The notes under the pieces are model-generated. The model made no database searches, was not told the DNA's origin, and saw nothing but the letters and a program-made list of their open reading frames with translations. This document shows, piece after piece, positions 5,286 through 34,823 of a stretch of DNA of 64,000 nucleotides (the stretch's first letter is position 1; the number at the start of each line of letters is the position of its first letter). The DNA comes from a virus (lineage: Duplodnaviria > Caudoviricetes). Made by a program: the position numbers and the translations under genes. The DNA is taken from positions 1 through 64,000 of IMG/VR virus record IMGVR_UViG_2619619259_000001; one strand, 5' to 3'.

Positions 5286-6119
5286 CTAACTTTTATTATC
5301 TGTATCGGCCTGCATTTTTAGTTTTTGTCTATATCTTGCCGAGGCTTCGCGCACTTGTTGTTTCTTCCTGCTTTTACGAACTTCCTTAAGTTCTGCCGCT
5401 GTTTTTTCTACATCATCAAGTAGATAAATTTTAGCTGACATAAACAAACTACATGGAATGGGGTCTACATAATCGTAGACTTTTTTCTTGCCCTTAGTCA
5501 TGCCAGGTTCAATGGTATAGCCACCAGAGAGAACTTCGTTAGTAATGAACAGTCCGTGTCGTGATATGCGAACAATTTCCTCCCTAGCCGGCAGTCCATG
5601 AGATGGGGCGTATGTTGCATTCACGATTGCATCCATATAGCCACCTCTGCGCAATCTAAACATCGTTCCATCTGGATATTGTGAAATTCGATGGATGTCC
5701 TCCTGCAGAGATAATGCGTGTTCGCTATCAATGGCATCTCTTCTTGCCAGACCGTTCAGTTTCCCCTTTATGCGTGTTAATAACGCTTCTCTATCTATGT
5801 TACTAACGCTGGTCGCTTCTTGCGCAAATATATGAAACTTACTAACACCGGTAATCACTTGTGGAAGGGGTAATAGGATAGTGTTATTAACGGGGATTGA
5901 CTCTTTTTTGCTTAACTTTTCAGCAAAGGAATTCCAGATATTAATTTTTTGCGTTATTTCTGGCAATTCAGATATATCAATAATAACCACAGGGCGGTAT
6001 TTGTCGCCAGAACTGTCGGTATTGGTATATACGGCCCGCTTTAAGGCCTCATCGACAAATTCATTTTTGAATTGCAGAAATGCGCGATAAGCGATCTCGC
6101 TACTGCTCGGCGTCCTCAT
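5286..6119 (-). CDS. c1: C1 primary repressor homolog
   Basis: 277 aa, convergent with pacB and next to coi/lox/cre as in P1 immC; basic C-terminus. Confidence 0.8.
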   Translation of the reverse strand: MRTPSSSEIAYRAFLQFKNEFVDEALKRAVYTNTDSSGDKYRPVVIIDISELPEITQKINIWNSFAEKLSKKESIPVNNTILLPLPQVITGVSKFHIFAQEATSVSNIDREALLTRIKGKLNGLARRDAIDSEHALSLQEDIHRISQYPDGTMFRLRRGGYMDAIVNATYAPSHGLPAREEIVRISRHGLFITNEVLSGGYTIEPGMTKGKKKVYDYVDPIPCSLFMSAKIYLLDDVEKTAAELKEVRKSRKKQQVREASARYRQKLKMQADTDNKS

Positions 6120-6234
6120 AAATACCTCATATAAAATTATCGTTAGTTTTCATCTACTGTGATTATTGATCAACAGTAGATGAAAATCACAGTTTTTTAG
6201 AAAAAGAGATGACTTTTAATAAAAAGAAGATCAC

Positions 6235-6432
6235 TTACATGACTTCGTCATATATGCGCAGAATTTCTTTTGCCAAAGAATCTCGACAATTACATCCATA
6301 CCCATGCTTACATGGCTTTTTTAAAAGAAAATGATCAGCAAGGGCCTCATGAAAATCACTATGATTGAGTGATACTCGTATAGCGTGCCGTTCCATCTCT
6401 AAAGATTTTAGTTCTAAATTATTATTCAGCAT
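6235..6432 (-). CDS. Small protein at the coi (C1 inactivator) position
   Basis: 65 aa, same strand and upstream of c1; assignment by synteny only. Confidence 0.45.
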   Translation of the reverse strand: MLNNNLELKSLEMERHAIRVSLNHSDFHEALADHFLLKKPCKHGYGCNCRDSLAKEILRIYDEVM

Positions 6433-6592
6433 GATTTTTTTACCATTTAATTAGTAACTGATGACGGAGTAGATGCCCCGACACATAGTGTGAGATGTCA
6501 GTCCCACTTAATTCGGTATAGCGACTAAGCAGATACTAATCTTAAAGTAAAGATATTTGTTGGGTTATCAATAGAGCTTCTTATCTTCATTT

Positions 6593-6626
6593 ATAACTCC
6601 ATATAACACCCATTATATGGAGTTAT
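6593..6626. other. lox-type recombination site (34 bp)
   Basis: ATAACTCCATATA-ACACCCAT-TATATGGAGTTAT: perfect 13-bp inverted arms with an 8-bp asymmetric spacer; 2 changes per arm versus loxP. Confidence 0.93.
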
Positions 6627-6734
6627 GCTATACTCAAAAAATGGCAGACTTAATAGATTGCGCTACGTGAATGCTTTTTTGTTTTGCGGGTGATTCACCT
6701 CAACTATTCACGTAGCGTTACATTCTAAAAAAGG

Positions 6735-7784
6735 ATGAAAGTTGTGCAGAAATTACTTCATAGTGAGAAATCAACTCTGATTCTAACCAACGGGCAGAAT
6801 GGACTAGATGAGGAAATAATTAATAATCTGAAGATGTTTGCTGAAGATAAAGCGGCCTACTCAGAGGAAACGTGGTCCCAGCTCACCCATGTATTTAAAT
6901 TGTGGGCCAAATGGTGCTGGCATCGCGGCTGCGTGTACCTGCCGATTGAGCCAGAAATTCTGAGGGAATACATTTTTCATTTACATGAGCGATTGGCCAT
7001 AAACTCAGTTAGACAACATATTTCATTGCTGGGAATGCTGCAGCGCCAAGGCGGTTTAACGCCAGTGAATCAACATCCGATTATTGTCCGAGCAATGAAA
7101 AAAATCAGCCGAGTCTCAATTGAAGGCGGCGAGCAAACAGGCCAAGCTATTCCATTTCATCTGTCTGATTTGAAAGTGTTGTCATCAAAAATTGGCGATT
7201 CTCGTCTGTTGGTTGATATCCGCAATCTCGCATTTATGGCCACGGCCTACCACACCCTCTTACGAATTAAAGAGATCTCAAGGTTAAGAGTTCGAGATTT
7301 TAAGCTATTACCAGATGGTCGGTCTTCATTAAGCATAGGCTATACAAAAACTATTCTTAACGGTGATGGCGCACTAAAAATCCTTGGGTTATGGACCACC
7401 GAAAAGATTAGACGATGGTTGGAATTATCAGGATTGGAGGGCAATCCTGATGCAATTATGTTTTGTGCAGTGCATAGAACTAACAAGGCTATCATCTCAG
7501 ATAGGCCATTAACAACCAAGCCAATGGAGGCGATCTTTAAAAGCGCTTGGGTTATGGTTCGCGGTGATAATGTAAGAAATAAAACAGATAAAGGCCGTTA
7601 TGCGACATGGACTGGGCATAGTGCGCGAGTTGGCGCGGCTCAAGATATGGCTAGAAAAGATGTGGCTTTACCAAAGATCATGCATGAGGGAACATGGAAA
7701 AAGACAGAAACTGTTATGCGTTATATCCGGCATTTAGACGCATCTAATAGTGCTATGTTAGATATTATTGATGATGAAATGTGA
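6735..7784 (+). CDS. cre: Cre-family tyrosine recombinase
   Basis: Catalytic R (TLLRIKEI), K (YTKT), HSAR, W (GTW), Y (VMRY); TGHSARVGAA as in Cre. Confidence 0.95.
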   Translation: MKVVQKLLHSEKSTLILTNGQNGLDEEIINNLKMFAEDKAAYSEETWSQLTHVFKLWAKWCWHRGCVYLPIEPEILREYIFHLHERLAINSVRQHISLLGMLQRQGGLTPVNQHPIIVRAMKKISRVSIEGGEQTGQAIPFHLSDLKVLSSKIGDSRLLVDIRNLAFMATAYHTLLRIKEISRLRVRDFKLLPDGRSSLSIGYTKTILNGDGALKILGLWTTEKIRRWLELSGLEGNPDAIMFCAVHRTNKAIISDRPLTTKPMEAIFKSAWVMVRGDNVRNKTDKGRYATWTGHSARVGAAQDMARKDVALPKIMHEGTWKKTETVMRYIRHLDASNSAMLDIIDDEM

Positions 7785-15654: not shown

Positions 15655-15851
15655 GTAAGGTTCCTATTTTATTAAAGCAATTTAAACGCTGGTGGACCAT
15701 TCGAGATCTTCGTGCGTGGTGGAATGAATGGCAAATCATTCTGAAGTACAACCGGTCAAAAATGTGGGTATCGCCCGATTTAACGATTGAGCGCAATTAC
15801 CGCATATTGAGAATGCTCGTTAAGGTCAAACTCAAATCGGGGGCCTTGTGA
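15651..15851 (+). CDS. Hypothetical protein
   Basis: 66 aa, GTGA overlaps at both ends within the operon. Confidence 0.6.
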   Translation: MSKVPILLKQFKRWWTIRDLRAWWNEWQIILKYNRSKMWVSPDLTIERNYRILRMLVKVKLKSGAL

Positions 15852-18283
15852 GATACGGATCAGTGTGTAGTGGAATAGAGGCCGCTAGCGTTGCGTGGGA
15901 ACCCCTGGGATGGATGCCAGCATGGTTTGCTGAGATAGAAAAATTTCCTAGTGCTGTTTTAGCACATCATTGGCCTGATGTACCAAATCTAGGCGATATG
16001 ACAAAAATAGCCGAACAGGTAACAGCCGGTCATGTAGAGGCTCCCGACATTTTAGTCGGTGGCACGCCGTGTCAGGCGTTCAGTGTGGCTGGATTACGAA
16101 ACGGGCTTGATGATGCCAGAGGGCAATTAACCCTCTCATATGTGGAACTATTGGATGCAATCGACAACAAGCGCCGTGAGCGCGGAGAAAAAGAAGCGAT
16201 CGCCGTCTGGGAAAACGTCCCGGGTGTCCTCAGCAGCAAAGACAACGCGTTCGGCTGCTTTCTGGCAGGACTTGCCGGAGAAAGCAGCGAGTTGCAGCCA
16301 GCAGGGGGAAAATGGACGCACGCAGGTTGTGTGTCTGGACCACAAAGGGCTATCGCCTGGCGTGTCCTTGATGCTCAATTTTTCGGAGTGGCCCAACGTC
16401 GTCGCCGTGTGTTTGTTATCGCAAGCGCTAGAGCAGACGTCGATCCCGCAAAAATACTTTTTGAGTTCGGTAGCGTGCGCAGGAATACTCCGCCGAGCCG
16501 AGAAGCGCGGCAAGGCTCTGCCGCCCCTTCTGGGACAAGTATTGCGGCAGGTAGCTATTGGGACTCAGAGATAAACCCACACCCGACGCTAAACCAATCC
16601 CACAACGTTGGCGGCAGTGGGTTTGTCGGTCAAAAGTGGCCAGCAGATATTGCATGTACTCTAAATGCTGCATTTGGCTCAAAACTTGGTCTAGAAGACC
16701 AGCATATCAACGGCGGTGCTCCGTTATTTGTTCCAGTTACACCTACCAGCCAGAATCCAGCGATTGCTCTCTCAGTTGCACTGCGCGGGCGCGATGGTGG
16801 CGCCACTGCGGAACTCGGAGATAATTTGGCTGGTGCATTACGAGCTAGTACTGGCGGCGGAGATAAACCTCATGTTTTGACCTATTCGAATGTTAGTCGC
16901 ACATTGCTGGGTAAACCTAATGATAGCATGGCTGAGGATTTGGATACCTATGTGATTAATAGCGCCGTGGCCTTCGCCGAGAATAGCCGCGCAGAAGTTC
17001 GACTAGAAAATGGTGATGGAAAAATTACAGGAACACTATCAACCGGCGGAGGAAAACCAGGTCAAGGCATACCTGCGATAGCAATCGCAGGTAGCACAAT
17101 TGGACGCACACCCGCTAATGGTGGCAACGGCACTGGATTTAGCGAGGATATTAGTTACACGCTAACAAAAACAGATCGCCGCGCCGTAACAGACAGAATG
17201 GCAGTTCGTCGCCTAACCCCTGTTGAGTGCGAGCGGTTACAGGGATTTCCAGACAACCATACTCTGATTCCTGTTAGCGCCAGTAAAAAAATTACTGAGG
17301 ATGAATACTTATATATCCGTTCTCATAGACCAGAAATAACAGCGGAAGACGCCCACCGTTTAGCCAAAGATGGCCCACGATATCAAGCGATTGGCAATTC
17401 AATGGCTGTCCCCGTAATGAAATGGATCGGTTCATCAATGAAAAAACACATTCCTTCTAATATTGAAAATTCAGATAAAAAGAAACCATTTTTAAAATGG
17501 GCTGGTGGCAAGTTATCAGTGATTGACCAGATAAAGCCTCATCTCCCAGATGGAAAGCGGTTTATTGAGCCCTTTGTTGGTGCTGGCTCAGTCTTCATGA
17601 ATGTCGATCATCCGATTAAGTTACTTGGTGATGTGAACGGTGACCTGATAAATCTTTATCATCAAGCCTCAATTAACACAGCGGAGTTGATAGATTTATC
17701 AAGAAAATTGTTTGATGAAGGTAATAGCCAGGAGGCTTATATGCGTCATCGAACTAAATTCAATGCTGCCAAAGACAGCAAGTTGCTAAGGGCCGCACTA
17801 TTTCTATATCTCAACAAACACGGCTTTAATGGGCTCTGCCGCTATAACCTTAGCGGTGAATTTAATGTCAGCTTTGGTAGTTACAAAACCGTTTATTTCC
17901 CTGATGCCGAGTTGCTGGAATTTGCTAAAAATGCGCATAACTGCATGTTTTTTCATGCGGGCTATGAGAAATTAATTCAAATGGCTGGTGACGGTGATGT
18001 TGTGTTTTGCGATCCTCCGTATATTCCTCTGGAAAATACGGAGGGATTTACACACTACCATATTAAAAAATTTGGCATGGATGACCATATAGACTTAGTT
18101 AAGATGTTATGTGCAGCACACCGCCGGGGGGCGAGTATTGTAATAACAAACAGTGGATCTACTGAGTCTAAAGAACTCTATCAACGACATGGATTTACTA
18201 TCCATAATCTCCACGCTAAACGCTCAATAAGCGCAGCCGGATCTACTCGTAAAGGCGTAACAGATATCATAGCAGTGCTATAG
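15848..18283 (+). CDS. dmt: Dmt: fused C5-cytosine and Dam-type N6-adenine DNA methyltransferase
   Basis: SVCSGIE, GGTPCQ, WENV, QRRRR, IGNS (C5 MTase), then KWAGGK, EPFVG, DPPY (Dam). Confidence 0.93.
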   Translation: MRYGSVCSGIEAASVAWEPLGWMPAWFAEIEKFPSAVLAHHWPDVPNLGDMTKIAEQVTAGHVEAPDILVGGTPCQAFSVAGLRNGLDDARGQLTLSYVELLDAIDNKRRERGEKEAIAVWENVPGVLSSKDNAFGCFLAGLAGESSELQPAGGKWTHAGCVSGPQRAIAWRVLDAQFFGVAQRRRRVFVIASARADVDPAKILFEFGSVRRNTPPSREARQGSAAPSGTSIAAGSYWDSEINPHPTLNQSHNVGGSGFVGQKWPADIACTLNAAFGSKLGLEDQHINGGAPLFVPVTPTSQNPAIALSVALRGRDGGATAELGDNLAGALRASTGGGDKPHVLTYSNVSRTLLGKPNDSMAEDLDTYVINSAVAFAENSRAEVRLENGDGKITGTLSTGGGKPGQGIPAIAIAGSTIGRTPANGGNGTGFSEDISYTLTKTDRRAVTDRMAVRRLTPVECERLQGFPDNHTLIPVSASKKITEDEYLYIRSHRPEITAEDAHRLAKDGPRYQAIGNSMAVPVMKWIGSSMKKHIPSNIENSDKKKPFLKWAGGKLSVIDQIKPHLPDGKRFIEPFVGAGSVFMNVDHPIKLLGDVNGDLINLYHQASINTAELIDLSRKLFDEGNSQEAYMRHRTKFNAAKDSKLLRAALFLYLNKHGFNGLCRYNLSGEFNVSFGSYKTVYFPDAELLEFAKNAHNCMFFHAGYEKLIQMAGDGDVVFCDPPYIPLENTEGFTHYHIKKFGMDDHIDLVKMLCAAHRRGASIVITNSGSTESKELYQRHGFTIHNLHAKRSISAAGSTRKGVTDIIAVL

Positions 18284-25516: not shown

Positions 25517-26023
25517 ATGACATTAGACGCTGCAACCCTACAGATGATTAGTAACGTTATTGTTTTTTTTGGTGTAGTTGTCGCCATTTTCACAATTATC
25601 TACAACGTTCGTACCGCAAAAAAAATTCAGACAGCCAACTTCTTGTTTGAAAGTCGCCAAGATCTTCAATACATAGAAGCACTGCACATCCTTAAAAAAG
25701 TACATCGCTCAGGAAAATCCTTCCGGTCTTACGTTTTCCCATCAGAAGGAGGGAAAATATCCGAAGACGAAATGGTTGAACGCCGCAAAATCCAGTACAT
25801 CCTGAATTTTTATGAAAGAGTAGCAATCGGCATCGACAATAATATTTATGATGAAACAATGATAAAGAGGACATCATTCACTACTGTTATAGAAACGTAT
25901 GACATTGCCGAACCGCTGATCAAGGCGATTAGAGAGAACATTAAATCAGACAGTACCTATCAAGAATTTGAATGGCTGGTTAATCGTTGGAAGAGCGATC
26001 CGCTAAAGAAAAGTAGCTATTAA
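25517..26023 (+). CDS. DUF4760-like membrane-anchored protein
   Basis: N-terminal TM helix, ILNFYE.VA.GI....YDE, Y.EFEWL..RW. Confidence 0.75.
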   Translation: MTLDAATLQMISNVIVFFGVVVAIFTIIYNVRTAKKIQTANFLFESRQDLQYIEALHILKKVHRSGKSFRSYVFPSEGGKISEDEMVERRKIQYILNFYERVAIGIDNNIYDETMIKRTSFTTVIETYDIAEPLIKAIRENIKSDSTYQEFEWLVNRWKSDPLKKSSY

Positions 26024-26053: not shown

Positions 26054-26668
26054 CTATTCCCCATCAGGTTCCCACGCTTCGCTAAATTCGTCATTTTCAA
26101 ATAGTTCAGCCAATCCTGATATTTGTTTCAGCCTCAAAACCTCATCGGCATCCATCCCTAGTTCTTTTGCTATTTTTTCATCACCCCAATTTCTGCGTGA
26201 CAGTTCAATGACAATGTCACTCATTGAGCTGATCTTATGTTTACCTCTTGCTCTGTTGTGCCTGATCGTTGATGCCATACGATCGCTTCTTTCGGTACTG
26301 GACTTGTTTACGACAACCACCGGCAAATGAGACATTTTCTTTTTCTTGCCAACCAAGTTACGGTGATAGCCGTCAATAACTTCATAATGCCCATCAACTT
26401 CCCATACAACTATCGGCTGAGTATATCCATCAGCATCAATACTCGTTTCAAGCAATGCCATCTCTGGTGGCGCCACACTATTGGGGTTGTAATCATTGGC
26501 AACCACCAGCTCAGAACGAACCCATATAACATGACTAACAGGATGATCTAGAATCCAGTCAGGGAGTTTTTCTTCTTGCATTCGTCTCGCTCCTTTTTCT
26601 TTCTTTTCATATATTGTTCGTAATGAAACCCATGTTTTGTTTGAGTAAATGACAATCCCTTGGCCCAA
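26054..26668 (-). CDS. ibrB: IbrB/YbdM-like ParB/Srx-domain protein (true start probably ATG 26581)
   Basis: ANDYNPN.VAPPE, GYTQPIV, IDGYHR, ASTIRHNRARGKH. Confidence 0.88.
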   Translation of the reverse strand: MGQGIVIYSNKTWVSLRTIYEKKEKGARRMQEEKLPDWILDHPVSHVIWVRSELVVANDYNPNSVAPPEMALLETSIDADGYTQPIVVWEVDGHYEVIDGYHRNLVGKKKKMSHLPVVVVNKSSTERSDRMASTIRHNRARGKHKISSMSDIVIELSRRNWGDEKIAKELGMDADEVLRLKQISGLAELFENDEFSEAWEPDGE

Positions 26669-27780
26669 TAGTCATTTTTTAACAGCATTTTTGCGATCCT
26701 TCGCCAGGACGGTGCCTTCTTTGCCGCCTCTTCCTTCGGGTCAGCTTCATCGGGTATTCCGTTAGGGAACCCCTTTCTTGCATACCATCCTAAAAACGTG
26801 TGTATTTTGTTTTTATAATGCTCTGACATGTGATCGGGTAGGCTAGCTAAAATGACCTCGCAAAATGATTGCCAGGTATGGCCATCCGGTTTTGATATTT
26901 TCACCTGCCCGCTACCATTTCCGCTCAGTTTTACAAACTCTGAACCGCTATTTACCCCAGCCACACGAGCAACAACACGTGACCATGTTTCTGGCTCAAT
27001 AACATGGTACAACCATAACCCCTTACGCTGATCGTCTCCATACGGCTGGCAGATGCGCTGTTGATGTATGGATAGCCCAGCTCGGTTCATTAGGTCGTAT
27101 AACCTGTTATACGATTTCTTAAACTTGCCAACATACGTCCATATATCCGTTGTTTTCCAGTCGTATAATGGATAAGCGTTATAGACAAAGCTTTTATAAA
27201 GTTTCGTTGTCCAACAATGATTTTTAAACGTTTCTTTTTTCTTGTTGCTGATGGTTCTGTACCTATTAAGACTTTCATCCGTTCGGATACCAACAAAACA
27301 CGCACAGGGCATATTATTTGAGTACCATTTACCGAATTCTGGCACGAACTCTTCAAACTCCATCCCTCGCTTGAAAAAAGGGAAGTAATCTTCATCAATG
27401 ATTGAGCGCGAGTCGGGTTCTCTAACCCATGACGATTTACTATCTGGATCCCAACAAAGCCATTTGGGTTCATAAACACTAACGGCATTTCTTAATGCGA
27501 TAGGTAGCGCCACCCAATACAGTTCTATAACGTCACTGTACTCGTTGAGCATTTCATCTATATGCTCGATCGTGAGTTTATATTGGGCCTCAAGGTCAAC
27601 AATCAGAACGGCAAATTTAACCCCCCTTTTTCTTGCCTCTGTTGCGACAAGATGCAACATGACGGAACTGTCTTTCCCTCCCGAAAATGAAAGGTAGATT
27701 TTAGGAAATGCATCAAAAACTTCAGAAATTCGCCCCTGCGCCGCTGTAAGCACATCTATACAAAGTCCTCTTTTAGCCAC
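26548..27780 (-). CDS. ibrA: IbrA/YbdN-like PAPS-reductase family protein (DUF3440)
   Basis: SFSGGKDS PP-loop, GIR.DESLNR, YPLYDW, QRICQPYG, PSWRR..K..LKND. Confidence 0.9.
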   Translation of the reverse strand: MAKRGLCIDVLTAAQGRISEVFDAFPKIYLSFSGGKDSSVMLHLVATEARKRGVKFAVLIVDLEAQYKLTIEHIDEMLNEYSDVIELYWVALPIALRNAVSVYEPKWLCWDPDSKSSWVREPDSRSIIDEDYFPFFKRGMEFEEFVPEFGKWYSNNMPCACFVGIRTDESLNRYRTISNKKKETFKNHCWTTKLYKSFVYNAYPLYDWKTTDIWTYVGKFKKSYNRLYDLMNRAGLSIHQQRICQPYGDDQRKGLWLYHVIEPETWSRVVARVAGVNSGSEFVKLSGNGSGQVKISKPDGHTWQSFCEVILASLPDHMSEHYKNKIHTFLGWYARKGFPNGIPDEADPKEEAAKKAPSWRRIAKMLLKNDYWAKGLSFTQTKHGFHYEQYMKRKKKERDECKKKNSLTGF

Positions 27781-28184
27781 TTTGCCACCTCCCTTAATTC
27801 ATTGATAGCGGCACGCGTTTTACTGCCAGAGAAAGAATTCATATCCATATCTAAAAGACTTTTCTTTGTGTACTTCTGAAATATGGATAGCTGAATAAAG
27901 ACTTCGTTCTCTTTTGCATCAAAAAAGGAGTTATCATAAAACCTAACTGGTAACAGGCTATTTTGACTCCAAATTTTAAAATAGACTCTAATTACTCCAT
28001 TTTTGATGTAGATTGAGGGGGCTATCACCGCCCTCAGTTTTTCCGTGCCTTTAATGAAGGCCGCAACCTTGAGTGCTTCAGATTGCGATATACCTTTATC
28101 AAAAACGATGAAATCCGCGAAATCAAAAAGATCTTGTTCGTTTACCAAAGAATTCACCCGTTGCGTAGTAATTGGCCATAACAC
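27756..28184 (-). CDS. Hypothetical protein between the cas8-like gene and ibrA
   Basis: ORF overlapping both neighbours; start uncertain. Confidence 0.65.
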   Translation of the reverse strand: MLWPITTQRVNSLVNEQDLFDFADFIVFDKGISQSEALKVAAFIKGTEKLRAVIAPSIYIKNGVIRVYFKIWSQNSLLPVRFYDNSFFDAKENEVFIQLSIFQKYTKKSLLDMDMNSFSGSKTRAAINELREVAKWLKEDFV

Positions 28185-29283
28185 TAGAAATTGCGTCTCT
28201 TCTTTGTTTAGAGAGGCTTAAAGTGTTTTCTGGAATCATCTCTTGGTAAACATCAAACGCCGCTTCGCCCTCATCCATTCCAGATAGAAGCCGCGCAGCC
28301 ATATTCTTTCTCGCATCTACAACGCAACCCGCATCGTATTCAGTAGGTTTATTGCTTCTGCCTTTCAATTGCCATGTAGCCTTGCTTAACTGCATCAGCA
28401 TTTTACGGGGGAAAGCCTCCCGTAACTTAAACCGTTCGTGCACAACCAATTTCAAGCTGGCTTTATCATAAAACGTACTGAAACATAGAATGTCATCGCC
28501 TATTTTGGCATTCTCAGTAATGGAAACTGGCGGTATAGCAACGGCGCTATCAAATGCGGCTCCATCCATGATGTCGATTAGAGTTTGAGTCGGGGTAATT
28601 GCATATTTTCTGCCTGATATTGTTTGTGCTAAATGAGGGTTTTCCACTGGATCAGGCCGCTCAGCCAGACCTTTTTTATAAAAATGGGTGATGGTCGGTT
28701 TTTCACTACCACAGATCCCACATGGAATATCGCTGTTTGCATCATCAAGCCAGTATTGGCAGGCTTCTGAGAAATAGGCATTGATAGCTTGCTTTTCTTT
28801 AGTCAGATTGGCATTAACCGTTTTTTCTACCGTATCTTTTATTATCAGATAAATAGCGTTATGGAATAAACGTGCGGGATAATATCCCTGCCCAGCAGCA
28901 CCAGCAAATTGGGATTGCGTATACAGTGCGATATGGGCGCATTCAGTACACATAGCAGCACAGCCACCGCGCTTAACAAAGAAGTCAGTATTGTGCTTTA
29001 TAGCGTTCGCGCCAGGTGATTCCAGCAATAGGGTTCCAATAGGGAATAATTTTCCTTCTTTTGCTGAGACTCTTTGCAGGAATCGAGTTGGGTTATCGCC
29101 TAATGATTCAACGTAGTCAGTGTTTTTTAGCCCTATCAGTAACAACTTAATAGCAAAATCAAAATCGCTTCTCCCTGTACTAATCGATAACTCGGAGAGA
29201 GATTGAACCTCAGAGACAGAACAATGCGACCGCTTTCCGCCAACGACTACGGGTATCCATGCATCAGTCAATATATTCATCAC
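28123..29283 (-). CDS. Orphan, shortened type I-E Cas8e/Cse1(CasA)-like protein
   Basis: MNILTDAWIPV, R.DF...LLIGL, RFLQ, LL.ESPG.N.IK.N.DFFVKRG, C..CA.IALY..Q..A..GQGY, CGICG: the Cse1 N-terminal motif series. Confidence 0.75.
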   Translation of the reverse strand: MMNILTDAWIPVVVGGKRSHCSVSEVQSLSELSISTGRSDFDFAIKLLLIGLKNTDYVESLGDNPTRFLQRVSAKEGKLFPIGTLLLESPGANAIKHNTDFFVKRGGCAAMCTECAHIALYTQSQFAGAAGQGYYPARLFHNAIYLIIKDTVEKTVNANLTKEKQAINAYFSEACQYWLDDANSDIPCGICGSEKPTITHFYKKGLAERPDPVENPHLAQTISGRKYAITPTQTLIDIMDGAAFDSAVAIPPVSITENAKIGDDILCFSTFYDKASLKLVVHERFKLREAFPRKMLMQLSKATWQLKGRSNKPTEYDAGCVVDARKNMAARLLSGMDEGEAAFDVYQEMIPENTLSLSKQRRDAISSVMANYYATGEFFGKRTRSF

Positions 29284-29692
29284 GATAATCCCCCTCTCCT
29301 TCTCCTAACTTAGAGTATTTTTCTGCAATAGCATGCAGGTCTAATAGGTTAGTTGTTTCATAAACATGATTGTTAACATCATCAATGGCAGCCATTCGAT
29401 ACTGGATGTCGCTATAGGTATAGTGATCAACAATGGCATGGATCATTTCCAGCGTAATACCATCTCCGCTAACAATGTTGTTTTTAGCGTATTCCACCCA
29501 CTCATCGAGCAGACCCTGCGAATGAATAAAGACAAGGATTCGAATAGCTGTATCTGCAATAGCAGAAGGCATCGCAGTGCCATCTCTCCAATTGTTATAC
29601 GTAGACCGAGTTACATGTAACGCACTAGAAAAATCAGTGTGGGTTTTAAACCCCATTCGTGTTCTATATTCTTCCATTTCTTGCGGCGTCAT
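29264..29692 (-). CDS. XRE/HTH regulator (Aca-like), first gene of the operon
   Basis: MT..EM..YR..MG.....FS.AL.V...TY.NW..G...P HTH; GGGGA SD. Confidence 0.75.
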   Translation of the reverse strand: MTPQEMEEYRTRMGFKTHTDFSSALHVTRSTYNNWRDGTAMPSAIADTAIRILVFIHSQGLLDEWVEYAKNNIVSGDGITLEMIHAIVDHYTYSDIQYRMAAIDDVNNHVYETTNLLDLHAIAEKYSKLGEGEGDYRDEYID

Positions 29693-29990
29693 ATAGTTCC
29701 CCTTTGCAATGTCATACTAAGATGAAATCAATATGTACCATATCGGAACACATTGCAACCCCCTACCCCACCACTTTTCTTAGGCTTAATATGATTTTAG
29801 ACCCGACAAATGAACTTATATTATTGATATATATTGTTTTGTCATTTGATTAAATAATCAAAAGATAAAAAAATAAAATGATGTATTTGTTTTATGATTT
29901 ATTGATGTTAGCATCGTTTTGTCAAATGATTAATTTGTATTAACATCAATACATGTTAATCTTCTTTTATCATTATCACGTGCTTAAGGG

Positions 29991-30620
29991 ATGGAATGTA
30001 TGAAGGTGATCTCGTTTATTAACCCGAAGGGTGGGACAGGCAAAACAACATCGGTGATCAATGTTGCAACCTGCCTAGTGAATAGCGGTTATAAAGTTGC
30101 TGTTGTTGATACCGATCCACAGATGAGCCTGACGAACTGGAATAAAAACGATAAGGCTAACTTCGATGTTTACACAGCATCATCAGAGAAAGACGTTTAT
30201 CAGGTAAGAAAAGATTTGTCTGGGTATGACCTCACGGTTATTGATGGCGCAGGTTCATTATCAGTTATCACATCGGCCGCAATTATGGTGAGCGACCTCG
30301 TCATTATTCCTGTTAGCCCATCACCATTAGATTTCTCGGCATCCAGTAGTGTTGCAGCGGTACTTGAGGCCCAAGCCTACAGCCGTAAAGTTGAAGCTAA
30401 ATATCTCATCACAAGAAAAATTGATAATGCAGCGATGTTAACCTTGTTGAAGGACAGCATTGATGAAACAGGTTTAGGTCGATTTAAAACGGCCCTGACC
30501 AATAGGCAGACCTATGTTAAAACCTGCGTTGACGGCAACACCGTATTTGATACAAAGGACGGCGCTGCAAAAGGTGAGGTTGAGGTTTTGACAAAAGAAA
30601 TTATTGATTCTTTGATGTAA
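29991..30620 (+). CDS. parA: ParA (ParF-type, type Ib) partition ATPase
   Basis: NPKGGTGKTT, VDTDPQ, no N-terminal HTH. Confidence 0.93.
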   Translation: MECMKVISFINPKGGTGKTTSVINVATCLVNSGYKVAVVDTDPQMSLTNWNKNDKANFDVYTASSEKDVYQVRKDLSGYDLTVIDGAGSLSVITSAAIMVSDLVIIPVSPSPLDFSASSSVAAVLEAQAYSRKVEAKYLITRKIDNAAMLTLLKDSIDETGLGRFKTALTNRQTYVKTCVDGNTVFDTKDGAAKGEVEVLTKEIIDSLM

Positions 30621-33176: not shown

Positions 33177-34823
33177 ATGTCTACAAGTAGCATTCCATTT
33201 ACTATCTCGCAGGTAGCTGGGGTTGCGATTGGAGCGATTGACGCAGAAAAAACACTGACTATCGGGGATGGTGGAAGTGCCTCAGTATTTAGTGGTGTTG
33301 TCGTCTCTGAAAGAGGCCGTCCATTCACTGCATTGAAAGTAACAAAATCAAACTTTATTAAATTACTAGGCGCACCGATCCACCCATCAAAAGGGAAATC
33401 GTTTGAACCCATTCGCCATGTTGCTGACGCGGTGAAGGGCGGTTTTGGCTACGTTGTCCGGGTGGTACCAGAAGATGCAAGGTTCCCATTAATCACCTTG
33501 TCTAAGCCTACTGCACTTAAATCTAAGTCGGTAAAAAGCGGGGCAGGGGATGTAGAACCTCTAGCAGCTGAAGCACCTGTAAGTAATGTCGTGGTATCAA
33601 ATTCAAGTCAGCCATTTGAAGGCGATGTCACTTTGTCTGATGGGCAATTTTGTTCAATTTATGTTGTTGACGGGGATCCGTCTGCTAACCGTGTGCTAAG
33701 CATTGAAAAAGATGAAGCAGAAGAAGGGCGCTTCATTCTAAAGCTTGCTGAGATCAGCAAAATGGGGGTTTCAACCCTGTTAGACAACATTACCATTTCA
33801 TTTGATCTTGAGTCTGTAGATGACATGGGGCGCCCAGCATACATTGTGACGGCATTAGAAAACCGCTCCCAATATTTACGTGCTGTTTGTAATTCAGATC
33901 TGGCGTTAACCTCTGGGTTCACCTCCCTCTCTAAGCAAGCTTTTGTCGGCGGTACCAATGGTGATTTAAATAACATATCCATTGAACAGTATCGAAAAGC
34001 GACCACGGTCCTTCGTAACGCCTTCGTTGATATAACAGCTGTTCTTGGGCTGGGTTGCTATGAACCATCAATCATTGCTGAGTTAGCTGACATTGCGTTG
34101 GATCGCCGTATTGATGCATTTTTTGATATAGCCCCGACGCTAAATTATGCCGAAGCGCTGACTGTCGCAGATGAGTTGCCATTACACGAAAATCCTAATT
34201 CTTGCGTCTACCACTTCCCATTTAGTTCACGTGATAGTTACAGCCAATCAACGGTAGTGTACGGGCTATCTGGGGCTGCTTTCGTTGCTAAAGCAAAGGG
34301 CGTGGCTAAAGTCCCTGATGTAGGAGGGTGGCACTACTCACCAGCAGGACAAGAAAGAGGGGTGATTAGCCGCATTGGGTTGGCTCCATTGCCAGGTGTT
34401 GGCGAACCGGATTACGAAATGATGTACGCCAAGCGCATTAACAAAATTGAAAACGCCGGCGATGGCGTATTGATGATTGATGATGCGTTGACAACCTATC
34501 GACGAGATAACTATCTCCGATTCCAGCACATCCCCTCCACGATGAACGCTATTTCACGCGATTTTTACATCCTAGGCAGGGCGCTTAAACATCAACCTGA
34601 CGGAATCACCATAGGGGCATTAGAGCGTGAATTGCCGCGCCTTCTTGACCGATATATCGGCTCCGGCGCTTTAGTTAAACCACGCGATCCTGATGTAGAT
34701 GGCGAATCACCGTACATCATCACGGTAGAGCAGTCGGATAAAGATTTATGGACCGTTTCTTGGTCTTGCTGCGTTACAGGTTCTGCTCGTCGCATCGTTG
34801 GGATGCCAGCACTAATTCGTTAA
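33177..34823 (+). CDS. Tail sheath protein gp22
   Basis: GGWHYSPAG..RG, IDDALT, ARRIVG.P.L; follows gp23. Confidence 0.85.
   Translation: MSTSSIPFTISQVAGVAIGAIDAEKTLTIGDGGSASVFSGVVVSERGRPFTALKVTKSNFIKLLGAPIHPSKGKSFEPIRHVADAVKGGFGYVVRVVPEDARFPLITLSKPTALKSKSVKSGAGDVEPLAAEAPVSNVVVSNSSQPFEGDVTLSDGQFCSIYVVDGDPSANRVLSIEKDEAEEGRFILKLAEISKMGVSTLLDNITISFDLESVDDMGRPAYIVTALENRSQYLRAVCNSDLALTSGFTSLSKQAFVGGTNGDLNNISIEQYRKATTVLRNAFVDITAVLGLGCYEPSIIAELADIALDRRIDAFFDIAPTLNYAEALTVADELPLHENPNSCVYHFPFSSRDSYSQSTVVYGLSGAAFVAKAKGVAKVPDVGGWHYSPAGQERGVISRIGLAPLPGVGEPDYEMMYAKRINKIENAGDGVLMIDDALTTYRRDNYLRFQHIPSTMNAISRDFYILGRALKHQPDGITIGALERELPRLLDRYIGSGALVKPRDPDVDGESPYIITVEQSDKDLWTVSWSCCVTGSARRIVGMPALIR

What the first reader, a model, noticed from the sequence alone, without database searches (positions are those of the whole stretch)
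26054..29760. Orphan Cas8e/Cse1 homolog in an HTH - cas8-like - ORF - ibrA - ibrB operon with no CRISPR array
Seen: five overlapping minus-strand genes behind one promoter. The 386-aa second gene carries the Cse1 N-terminal motif series: WIPV, FLQ, an L1-like loop (DFFVKRG), a Gly loop (GAAGQG) and two CxxC zinc motifs. No cas3/5/6/7/11 or array occurs in the window. Established: canonical Cas8e is about 500 aa, reads the PAM, docks on Cas5 and recruits Cas3, and viral cas homologs can act as anti-CRISPRs. Inference: either a dominant-negative Cascade decoy with an eroded C-terminal Cas3-recruiting region, or an exapted DNA-recognition subunit directing the IbrA/IbrB enzymes. I cannot tell from here whether this operon is already described.
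Basis: partly seen in the sequence, partly recalled or inferred. Interest (0 to 1): 0.85.

Follow-up and report, generated by a model that had tools for sequence, protein, structure and literature searches.

The report
Phage-borne miniature Cas8e, likely anti-CRISPR
A plasmid-like prophage carries a shrunken copy of the large subunit of its host's own CRISPR machine, and because the host's CRISPR memory holds perfect matches to this prophage yet tolerates it, the copy is probably a decoy that switches that immunity off.

Summary
Window 28123-29283(-) encodes a true Cas8e/Cse1 homolog (Pfam PF09481 42.6 bits, cut-off 24.7). An alignment-based AlphaFold model (pLDDT 88.7) superposes on E. coli Cse1 at Z 27.4 over 366 of 385 residues. 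It is a compacted whole Cas8e, C-terminal four-helix bundle included, not an N-terminal remnant.

It belongs to a rare family that forms one clade apart from canonical Cas8e. The window is a P1-like phage-plasmid (contig C8).

The host chromosome has an intact type I-E operon and two arrays. Five of 15 spacers in one array match C8, three of them 32/32, with PAMs AAG x4 and GAG x1.

The only two other genomes found with a family member (G037, G655) also have type I-E. Their spacers also hit the prophage that carries the gene. The mini-Cas8e is the only protein shared by the three unrelated elements.

The ibrA/ibrB linkage is not conserved: 0 of 3 other loci, and none of the 138 ibrA-bearing phage records.

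Best reading (about 0.55): a Cas8e-derived anti-CRISPR acting as a defective Cascade subunit, like AcrIB3/AcrIB4 in type I-B. The function is untested.

The parts
28123..29283 (-). mini-Cas8e (386 aa by longest ORF; the family alignment begins at the second Met): a compact two-domain Cas8e/Cse1 homolog and the candidate anti-CRISPR
   Evidence: PF09481 42.6 bits above the 24.7 cut-off. AF2 pLDDT 88.7, pTM 0.88. Foldseek top 22 hits are all Cas8e. VIA Z 27.4, rmsd 3.5 A, 366 residues aligned to 4u7u_M. Its family is one side of a branch with SH-aLRT 99.
29264..29692 (-). 142-aa acidic (pI 4.7) protein with an N-terminal helix-turn-helix; a conserved partner of the mini-Cas8e in G037; possible Aca-like regulator
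   Evidence: Weak HTH_19/HTH_3 matches below the cut-offs. 24% identical to the 143-aa gene just upstream of both G037 copies (BLASTP E 2e-10). No other relatives found.
27756..28184 (-). ORF142, an orphan ORF between the mini-Cas8e and ibrA; whether it is a real gene is not settled
   Evidence: No family in Pfam, PHROGs, NCBIfam or PADLOC. Only itself in the 5.8-billion-protein search, as a 130-aa form with 2 members. No usable Atlas hit. Absent from the other loci.
26548..27780 (-). IbrA-like PAPS-reductase/DUF3440 protein; a widespread phage accessory gene, here a neighbour and not a conserved partner
   Evidence: PF11922 6.4e-28, PF01507 3.2e-18. phrog_2302 2.2e-82. 138 phage records match. 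Weak DndC/BrxP matches.
26054..26668 (-). IbrB-like ParB_N protein, the usual partner of IbrA
   Evidence: PF02195 1e-06. phrog_2159 4.6e-65. ibrA-ibrB stand adjacent without any Cas8e-like gene in Escherichia phage PhiR5_2.
29818..29875 (-). Promoter-like site (29845-29818) overlapped by a 21-nt imperfect palindrome (29832-29852 / 29855-29875); possible operator. Weak evidence.
33990..34024 (-). Protospacer (33990-34021) with its 5' AAG PAM, inside the tail-sheath gene. It matches a spacer of the host's chromosomal type I-E array at 32 of 32.
   Evidence: sheath gene 33177-34823. Four more protospacers lie on the same contig beyond the window: C8:64761-64792, 65416-65447, 68961-68992 and 79477-79508.

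Best explanation
The 386-aa gene is a phage-borne, miniaturised Cas8e that acts as an anti-CRISPR against the host's type I-E system.

Proposed mechanism (inferred). It is expressed from the resident P1-like plasmid prophage. It docks on Cascade at the Cas5e / crRNA 5'-handle position through its retained L1-loop region and zinc-bound N-terminal domain. There it competes with the loosely held host Cas8e. The resulting Cascade is defective, either in DNA engagement or in R-loop locking and Cas3 recruitment. Targets on the element that match host spacers perfectly and carry correct PAMs are therefore not destroyed.

The upstream HTH protein is probably its regulator. ORF142, ibrA and ibrB are neighbours in an accessory or anti-defence gene cluster, not parts of the same machine.

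Shown: the homology, the fold, the separate clade, the location on mobile elements, the intact cognate host systems, the self-targeting, and that this is the only shared gene.

Inferred: binding to Cascade, and inhibition.
For: (1) It is a true Cas8e. PF09481 scores above its cut-off. The host's own Cas8e aligns at 30% identity over residues 1-134 (E 1e-19). The model scores Z 27.4 against E. coli Cse1 over 366 of 385 residues.

(2) Docking features are kept. The L1 residues F129-V130-N131-Q132 of E. coli (passages of PMC5965380) align with F100-F101-V102-K103. N97, D99 and F101 are kept in 86-90% of 21 family members. The four Zn cysteines are kept in 21 of 21.

(3) Canonical motifs are lost. 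R of 'LRGG' is present in 96% of 72 canonical sequences and 0% of family members. LW falls from 99% to 0%. FPW (97-100%) is deleted. H of 'HPL' falls from 99% to 0%.

(4) All 24 family rows form one side of a branch (SH-aLRT 99). The three hosts' Cas8e group together deep inside the canonical side. The family is therefore old, not a set of recent captures.

(5) The host G000 has all 8 type I-E cas genes full-length and in single copy, plus two arrays.

(6) Five of 15 spacers of the C1 array match contig C8, at 32/32 x3, 31/32 and 30/32, with PAMs AAG x4 and GAG x1. Four of them stand consecutively in the array. None of the 9 spacers of the C3 array matches, and no other place in the genome matches over more than 18 nt.

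(7) G037: 6 of 33 spacers hit the prophage that carries the gene, four of them 32/32 with ATG or AAG PAMs. G655: 1 of 3 spacers hits at 30/32 with an AAG PAM. Both genomes have full cas sets.

(8) Among ORFs of 50 aa or more of the three elements (a P1-like plasmid prophage, a lambdoid prophage and a contractile-tailed prophage), the mini-Cas8e is the only protein shared by all three.

(9) There is precedent. AcrIB3 (a Cas5 homolog) and AcrIB4 (a Cas8b C-terminal-domain homolog) inhibit type I-B as faulty Cascade subunits (bioRxiv 10.1101/2023.06.24.545427, passages read).
Against: Self-targeting spacers against prophages are common in CRISPR-bearing genomes, and 37% of type I-E self-targeting spacers have a consensus PAM (PMC7708048, passages). 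Tolerated self-targeting is therefore not rare.

It can also come from transcriptional silencing. The abstract of PMC12248084 calls the E. coli K-12 type I-E system silent. It can come from another, unrecognised Acr as well.

G037 and G655 share a second candidate: a small acidic protein next to the gene.

The sample is only three genomes. The G655 spacer has 2 mismatches, one at position 2. The G655 cas3 match carries one TAA.

In G037 and G655 only the array beside the cas genes, and only the fetched stretches (about 189 kb and 72.5 kb), were examined.

At 386 aa the protein is far larger than typical Acrs. Other Acr genes on C8 were not excluded.
Confidence: 0.55

Rival explanations
1. Bystander. 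The self-targeting is tolerated for another reason: silent cas genes, or a different Acr on each element. The mini-Cas8e would then be a captured cas gene with some other, unknown role in prophages, for example in superinfection exclusion, or with no current role.
For: Self-targeting against prophages is frequent and often lacks a known Acr (PMC7708048 passages). Type I-E is described as silent in E. coli K-12 (abstract of PMC12248084). A small acidic Acr-like protein sits beside the gene in G037 and G655, and stands alone with a small HTH ORF in Cronobacter phage ENT47670.
Against: The small acidic protein is absent from G000. The mini-Cas8e is the only gene common to all three self-targeted elements. 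The family keeps invariant cysteines and the L1 region across members only 21-39% identical, and it yields a confident fold, so it is under selection. All 3 carrier genomes have type I-E, against 46 of 400 in the family sample.
Confidence: 0.2
2. Hijack rather than block. The mini-Cas8e forms a working hybrid Cascade that still reads PAMs and binds DNA but cannot recruit Cas3. Host spacers against the prophage would then become repressors (CRISPRi-like) or serve the phage in another way.
For: [quoted passage not shown] The loops 288-294 and 318-323, named as possible Cas3 contacts in PMC5965380, are shortened in the family.
Against: Those loops are also gapped in most of the canonical sequences aligned, so their loss is not specific to the family. 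Nothing shows DNA binding. AcrIB3 and AcrIB4, the precedents, block DNA engagement.
Confidence: 0.12
3. The mini-Cas8e is an exapted DNA-recognition subunit that guides the IbrA/IbrB (DndC/DndB-like) enzymes, with ORF142, as a five-gene DNA-modification or defence system.
For: The five ORFs overlap on one strand with no terminator-like site between them. IbrA gives weak DndC and BrxP matches.
Against: ibrA, ibrB and ORF142 have no homolog in the 3 other mini-Cas8e loci. 138 phage records carry ibrA and none of them matches the mini-Cas8e. ibrAB stand alone in Escherichia phage PhiR5_2. No PADLOC system fits.
Confidence: 0.04

Closest known systems
Cas8e / Cse1 / CasA, large subunit of type I-E Cascade (E. 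coli structures 4U7U, 5CD4, 4TVX, 5H9E)
   Same: Same two-domain fold: Z 27.4, rmsd 3.5 A, 366 residues aligned. Same four-cysteine zinc site. Same L1-region motif N-x-D-x-F-x-K. Same G-x-G loop. [quoted passage not shown]
   Different: About 111 residues shorter through internal deletions: E. coli 64-88, 194-226, 397-417, 441-451 and smaller ones. It lacks near-invariant canonical motifs: RGG(G)P-TT, LW, FPW, W-MPRR and HPL. It scores below the NCBIfam equivalog cut-off (43.1 against 70.05 bits). It is encoded on prophages with no other cas gene or array. It forms a separate clade.
AcrIB3 and AcrIB4 (Listeria; Cas5 and Cas8b C-terminal-domain homologs acting as faulty Cascade subunits; bioRxiv 10.1101/2023.06.24.545427, passages read; review PMC13131331, passages read)
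   Same: A Cas-subunit homolog on a mobile element outside any cas locus. It forms its own clade apart from the true Cas proteins. The host carries the cognate system. The proposed action is as a defective subunit.
   Different: A different subtype (I-E, not I-B) and a different subunit extent: a whole compact large subunit of 386 aa, not a Cas5 copy or a 90-residue tail. Identity to the host protein is lower (30% over 134 residues, against 38%). Activity is untested here. The words 'I-E', 'Cse1' and 'Cas8e' do not occur in the main text of that preprint. Its Table S3 of 358 orphan viral cas genes could not be seen and may list relatives.
Known type I-E anti-CRISPRs (AcrIE families, e.g. AcrIE7, AcrIE8.1, AcrIE9, AcrIE10; titles, abstracts and passages seen)
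   Same: Same presumed target system and the same genomic setting (prophages or plasmids in type I-E hosts).
   Different: Those are small proteins (about 12-13 kDa in Table 1 of PMC13131331) with no Cas homology. They bind Cas7, Cas11 or R-loop DNA. This one is a 44-kDa Cas8e homolog.
IbrA/IbrB (PAPS-reductase-like plus ParB-like pair of prophages; DndC/DndB-like)
   Same: Genes 4 and 5 of the operon are ordinary members: phrog_2302 at 2.2e-82 and phrog_2159 at 4.6e-65.
   Different: The pair occurs in 138 phage records without a Cas8e-like gene. The adjacency here is unique among the loci seen.

Membership tests
Cas8e/Cse1 (type I-E large subunit) | Sequence match to the family profile above the curated threshold | tested here: inconclusive
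   Pfam PF09481 scores 42.6 bits against a cut-off of 24.7, but over only 89 of 450 profile positions. NCBIfam equivalog TIGR02547 scores 43.1 bits, below its cut-off of 70.05. Four PADLOC Cas8e models match at 7e-17 to 4e-11.
Cas8e/Cse1 (type I-E large subunit) | [quoted passage not shown] | tested here: met
   Z 27.4, 366 of 385 residues aligned, model 1-375 against chain 1-495. C111, C114, C187 and C190 align with E. coli C140, C143, C250 and C253. Helices at 293-307, 317-332, 337-348 and 354-374.
Cas8e/Cse1 (type I-E large subunit) | L1-loop region that inserts into the Cas5e pore and contacts the crRNA 5' handle | tested here: met
   The motif is kept at sequence level: N97, D99, F101 and K103, aligned with E. 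coli 126-132. Contact itself was not tested.
Cas8e/Cse1 (type I-E large subunit) | Near-invariant canonical motifs (RGG(G)P-TT, LW, FPW, W-MPRR, HPL) and a length of about 500-560 aa | tested here: not met
   Each motif is kept in 0-10% of 21 family members, against 81-100% of 72 canonical sequences. Family lengths are 351-513 aa, mostly 351-441.
Cas8e/Cse1 (type I-E large subunit) | Encoded in a cas operon with cas3, cse2, cas7, cas5 and cas6e next to an array | tested here: not met
   It is the only Cas homolog on C8, and C8 has no repeat-like sequence. The same holds for the G037 and G655 loci.
Cas8e/Cse1 (type I-E large subunit) | Assembles into Cascade and licenses Cas3 | not testable with these tools
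No experiment was possible.
Cas-derived anti-CRISPR (AcrIB3/AcrIB4 kind) | A Cas-subunit homolog on a mobile element, outside a cas locus, forming its own clade | tested here: met
   P1-like phage-plasmid, lambdoid prophage, contractile-tailed prophage. Clade support SH-aLRT 99, from a quick search with long branches.
Cas-derived anti-CRISPR (AcrIB3/AcrIB4 kind) | The host carries the cognate CRISPR-Cas subtype | tested here: met
   3 of 3 carrier genomes have canonical Cse1 and Cas7e. Background is 46 of 400 genomes of the same family at E<=1e-5.
Cas-derived anti-CRISPR (AcrIB3/AcrIB4 kind) | Inhibits interference by the cognate system | not testable with these tools
   Indirect evidence only: tolerated self-targeting with consensus PAMs in 3 of 3 genomes.
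Cas-derived anti-CRISPR (AcrIB3/AcrIB4 kind) | Sits in an acr/aca-type or anti-defence locus | tested here: inconclusive
   An HTH gene stands upstream in G000 and G037. A small acidic protein stands beside it in G037 and G655. No known Acr or Aca family was identified, and no Acr library was available.
IbrAB-centred five-gene system | Conserved linkage of the mini-Cas8e with ibrA/ibrB | tested here: not met
   0 of 3 other loci. None of the 138 ibrA-bearing phage records matches the mini-Cas8e.

The most novel reading that the evidence does not exclude
The mini-Cas8e is not a mere plug but a replacement large subunit that reprogrammes host Cascade. The hybrid complex would still read PAMs and bind the prophage's protospacers but could not call Cas3. 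The host's own anti-phage spacers would then become harmless, or even serve the phage, for example as CRISPRi-like repression of late genes such as the sheath gene that stabilises lysogeny. It might also still feed spacer uptake, which would explain the runs of prophage-derived spacers.
Probability: 0.12. Interest if true: 0.85.

Novelty: new member of a known kind. Interest (0 to 1): 0.72.

Why it matters
Cas-derived anti-CRISPRs have so far been shown for type I-B and, through a Cas3 homolog, for type VI-A. My searches and the papers I read found no type I-E inhibitor derived from a Cas protein, and no whole large-subunit mimic.

Type I-E is the best-studied Cascade and is used for genome editing and silencing. 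A natural, compact Cas8e that docks but disables the complex would have three uses:
- as an off-switch;
- as a map of which Cas8e parts are dispensable for folding and docking and which are needed for function, since about 111 residues are deleted;
- as a clear case of how phages turn host immune parts against the host.

The three self-targeted lysogens make the idea directly testable.

Tried and rejected
- Nucleotide searches of the operon against phages and plasmids found no match.
- The word-index protein search found only the protein itself for the mini-Cas8e, ORF142 and the HTH.
- The single-sequence AF2 model was useless, with pLDDT 32.
Single-protein scans of viral contigs (P0001) and metagenome contigs (P0155) confirmed no relative. 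Contexts therefore came only from the genome search.
- The plasmid hit labelled 'DUF6012' (H12) proved to be an unlisted casA beside a normal type I-E operon.
- The class-level sample gave 0 further carriers among 400 scored genomes, with one genome unscored. The genus holds only G000.
- BFVD gave 0 viral structures at E<=0.001.
- No solitary repeat or mini-array lies on C8, so an RNA anti-CRISPR or phage mini-array reading was dropped.
- PADLOC found no defence system around the gene.
- The Atlas gave no usable hit for ORF142.
- The look-up of sequencing runs listed no run, and no RNA holder was listed (after two unanswered tries).
- The residue numbers E192 and E280, given in PMC5965380 as possible Cas3 contacts, do not match the K-12 CasA sequence I aligned (L192, P280), so I did not use them.
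- Inverted repeats upstream of the G037 and G655 modules gave nothing comparable to the window's palindrome.

Full report
**What is there**

The five minus-strand ORFs exist as described.

Its likeness to Cse1 is statistically firm:
- Pfam PF09481 gives E 6e-11 and 42.6 bits against a gathering score of 24.7, although over only residues 65-161.
- Four PADLOC Cas8e models match, down to 7e-17.
- tblastn against plasmids returns annotated casA genes.
- It fails the stricter NCBIfam equivalog threshold, 43.1 against 70.05 bits.

Gene 4 is IbrA-like (PAPS_reduct + DUF3440). Gene 5 is IbrB-like (ParB_N). Gene 1 has a weak HTH. Gene 3 (ORF142) has no family.

**Fold**

A single-sequence model failed, with pLDDT 32. 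With a 93-row alignment (21 family members and 72 canonical Cse1) AlphaFold2 gave pLDDT 88.7 and pTM 0.88.

Foldseek's 22 best PDB hits are all Cas8e. VIA-align gives Z 27.4 and rmsd 3.5 A over 366 of 385 residues against E. coli Cse1 in Cascade (4u7u_M). The model range 1-375 aligns with chain range 1-495.

So the protein is not an N-terminal remnant. It keeps the C-terminal four-helix bundle (helices 293-374).

Aligned with E. coli K-12 CasA, it lacks eight internal segments: 64-88, 194-226, 292-295, 319-322, 340-343, 397-417, 441-451 and 494-502. That is 111 residues in all.

**What is kept and what is lost**

These counts compare 72 canonical sequences with 21 family members.

Kept:
- W8, R37, F67, Q69, P89
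- The L1 region N97, D99, F101, K103. It aligns with E. coli F129-Q132, the residues that a review says enter the Cas5 pore and touch the crRNA 5' handle (PMC5965380, passages).
- The four zinc cysteines, in 21 of 21 members. They align with E. coli C140, C143, C250 and C253.
- G130-x-G132, N158, P215

Lost:
- R-G-G-(G)-P-x-T-T after the glycine loop (R in 96% of canonical sequences, 0% of members)
- L-W (99% to 0%)
- F-P-W (deleted)
- W-MPRR
- H-P-L (99% to 0%)

That the glycine loop, the wedge hairpin and the lysine finger read the PAM is recalled from the literature, not from a call. Residues G157-G161, Q354 and K268 do stand at the expected places in the K-12 sequence.

**The family**

Scoring against 1.84 billion representatives gave 410 hits at E<=0.001. 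A distinct group of short proteins (351-513 aa, E 1e-75 to 1e-10) aligns over nearly the whole query. The canonical 500-650-aa Cse1 proteins match only residues of about 55-180.

The family is rare. The ten clusters examined hold 1-5 members each, 18 in all. Two are named by NCBI as Cse1/CasA of Pluralibacter gergoviae and Xenorhabdus bovienii.

In a tree of 100 rows, the 24 family rows are one side of a branch with SH-aLRT 99. The Cas8e proteins of the three carrier hosts cluster together inside the canonical side. This was a quick search and several branches are long, so the support should be read with care.

Whole-genome searches found family members in:
- 1 of 400 other genomes of the same family (G037, two copies)
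- 1 of 400 of the order (G655)
- 0 of 399 other scored genomes of the class (400 scored in all, G000 among them; one more left unscored)

**Setting**

The window is contig C8 of its assembly (80,984 bp, 41.8% GC against 44-46% for the large contigs). It is a P1-like phage-plasmid: PmgS-like protein, PacA/PacB-type terminase, Dmt-like methylase, sheath, Sit-like transglycosylase, baseplate and portal. A ParA-type gene at 29991-30620, which I read as ParA from its translation and did not scan, diverges from the operon.

In G037 the gene sits in two copies of a lambdoid prophage, between antiterminator Q and the holin, on the opposite strand. Each copy is preceded by a 143-aa HTH protein homologous to the window's gene 1 (E 2e-10).

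In G655 it sits at the end of a contractile-tailed prophage, after the tail-fibre assembly gene.

ibrA, ibrB and ORF142 have no homolog at any of these three loci. IbrA itself matches 138 phage records from many phyla. None of them is among the 2 records that match the mini-Cas8e. ibrAB stand alone in Escherichia phage PhiR5_2. The five-gene 'system' is therefore an adjacency peculiar to this element.

**The host's CRISPR system**

The same genome has a canonical Cse1 on contig C3. It also has a full, single-copy type I-E set: Cas3 911 aa, Cas8e 520, Cse2 198, Cas7 354, Cas5 256, Cas6e 219, Cas1 307 and Cas2 97. There are two arrays, with 15 and 9 spacers.

Five of the 15 spacers of the C1 array match contig C8:

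| Protospacer on C8 | Match | PAM |
|---|---|---|
| 65416-65447 | 32/32 | AAG |
| 33990-34021 (in the window, sheath gene) | 32/32 | AAG |
| 79477-79508 | 32/32 | AAG |
| 68961-68992 | 31/32 | AAG |
| 64761-64792 | 30/32 | GAG |

Counted from the leader, these are spacers 4, 5, 6, 7 and 12. No other place in the genome matches any spacer over more than 18 nt. None of the 9 spacers of the C3 array hits C8.

That AAG, ATG, AGG and GAG license interference in E. coli type I-E is recalled, not from a call.

An intact type I-E system that carries perfect, PAM-proficient spacers against a replicon living in the same cell means interference is off.

**The same pattern elsewhere**

G037:
- 6 of the 33 spacers in the array beside its cas genes hit the prophage region C2:308647-343772, which contains the gene at 336786-338099.
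- Spacers 2, 3 and 6 from the leader match 32/32 with ATG. Spacer 20 matches 32/32 with AAG. Spacer 17 matches 31/32 with AAG. Spacer 16 matches 31/32 with ACG.
- Its cas genes are full-length, with cas3 50 kb away.

G655:
- 1 of 3 spacers matches the same prophage at 30/32 with an AAG PAM.
- Its cas set is full-length, although the cas3 match is reported with one TAA.

Only the fetched stretches were searched: ten loci, about 189 kb, of G037 and four loci, 72.5 kb, of G655.

An all-against-all comparison of ORFs of 50 aa or more from the three elements shows the mini-Cas8e as the only protein common to all three.

**Mechanism**

The most economical reading is an anti-CRISPR that works as a faulty Cascade subunit. 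It keeps what Cas8e needs to fold and to dock at the Cas5e / 5'-handle end. It has lost motifs that every working Cas8e keeps. This is inference; no binding or inhibition was tested.

The precedent is direct. AcrIB3 (a Cas5 homolog) and AcrIB4 (a homolog of the last 90 residues of Cas8b) inhibit type I-B while Cascade still assembles. They form their own clades, and 358 orphan viral cas genes were catalogued (bioRxiv 10.1101/2023.06.24.545427, passages read; review PMC13131331, passages).

The words 'I-E', 'Cse1' and 'Cas8e' do not occur in the main text of that preprint. Its supplementary table could not be seen.

**Cautions**

- Self-targeting spacers against prophages are common, and 37% of type I-E ones have consensus PAMs (PMC7708048, passages).
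- The type I-E system of E. coli K-12 is transcriptionally silent according to the abstract of PMC12248084. Silencing in these hosts cannot be excluded.
- G037 and G655 share a second candidate beside the gene: a 63-65-aa protein of pI 4.05. It also occurs alone, followed by a small HTH ORF, in Cronobacter phage ENT47670. It is absent from G000.
- Three genomes is a small sample.
- Other Acr genes on C8 were not excluded. No Acr library was at hand.
- Complex prediction, the search of earlier findings and sequencing-run evidence were unavailable.

**Verdict**

The gene is a real, structurally complete but miniaturised Cas8e on a self-targeted phage-plasmid. It is most likely a Cas8e-derived type I-E anti-CRISPR (about 0.55). 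The IbrAB-guiding idea is not supported.

It is a new member of the known kind 'Cas-derived anti-CRISPR'. It would be the first for type I-E and for a whole large subunit, as far as my searches and the passages I read show.

Noticed in passing
G037:C2:336129-336320 (L019:8130-8321); G655:C33:43510-43707 (L022:10511-10708); L043:4501-4857: A small acidic protein (63-65 aa, pI 4.05, 65% identical between the two genomes) lies directly upstream of the mini-Cas8e module. A 59%-identical unannotated copy sits in Cronobacter phage ENT47670 between Q and the holin, followed by a 51-aa HTH-like ORF. This looks like an acr-aca pair. It is absent from the window's genome.
   Followed up: partly
window 29704-29758 and 29832-29875: A perfect 9-nt inverted repeat (29704-29712 / 29750-29758) lies in the leader of the HTH gene. 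A 21-nt palindrome (86% complementary) overlaps the only promoter-like site on the minus strand. These are possible operators for the HTH protein.
   Followed up: no
window 15848-18283; L019:12100-15063 and L019:4236-5801: The window's 811-aa Dmt-like methyltransferase is 52% identical to a 987-aa G037 prophage fusion of a C5-methylase, a PAPS-reductase domain and Dam. G037 also has a ParB_N-N6/N4 methylase fusion. PAPS-reductase and ParB domains thus recur with DNA methylases near these loci.
   Followed up: no
G000 contig C1:1608621-1609565: Four consecutive spacers (nos 4-7 from the leader) and no. 12 of this array target the resident phage-plasmid, which suggests a burst of acquisition from it. 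The second array (C3:36338-36915) has none. All four arrays seen share a TTTAGA/TTTGGA leader-repeat junction.
   Followed up: partly
G000 contig C13 (5733 bp): This contig has 22.8% GC, far below the 44-46% of the chromosome contigs.
   Followed up: no
window 25517-26023 (+): A 168-aa ORF with a hydrophobic N-terminus converges on the 3' end of ibrB. PADLOC gave no match and it was not examined further.
   Followed up: no
L001 (NZ_LC542972.1, E. coli IncHI2 plasmid) about 5800-7340: A type I-E operon (casB to cas2) on a conjugative plasmid. Its casA region is missing from the PLSDB gene table, and the neighbouring gene is labelled DUF6012.
   Followed up: no
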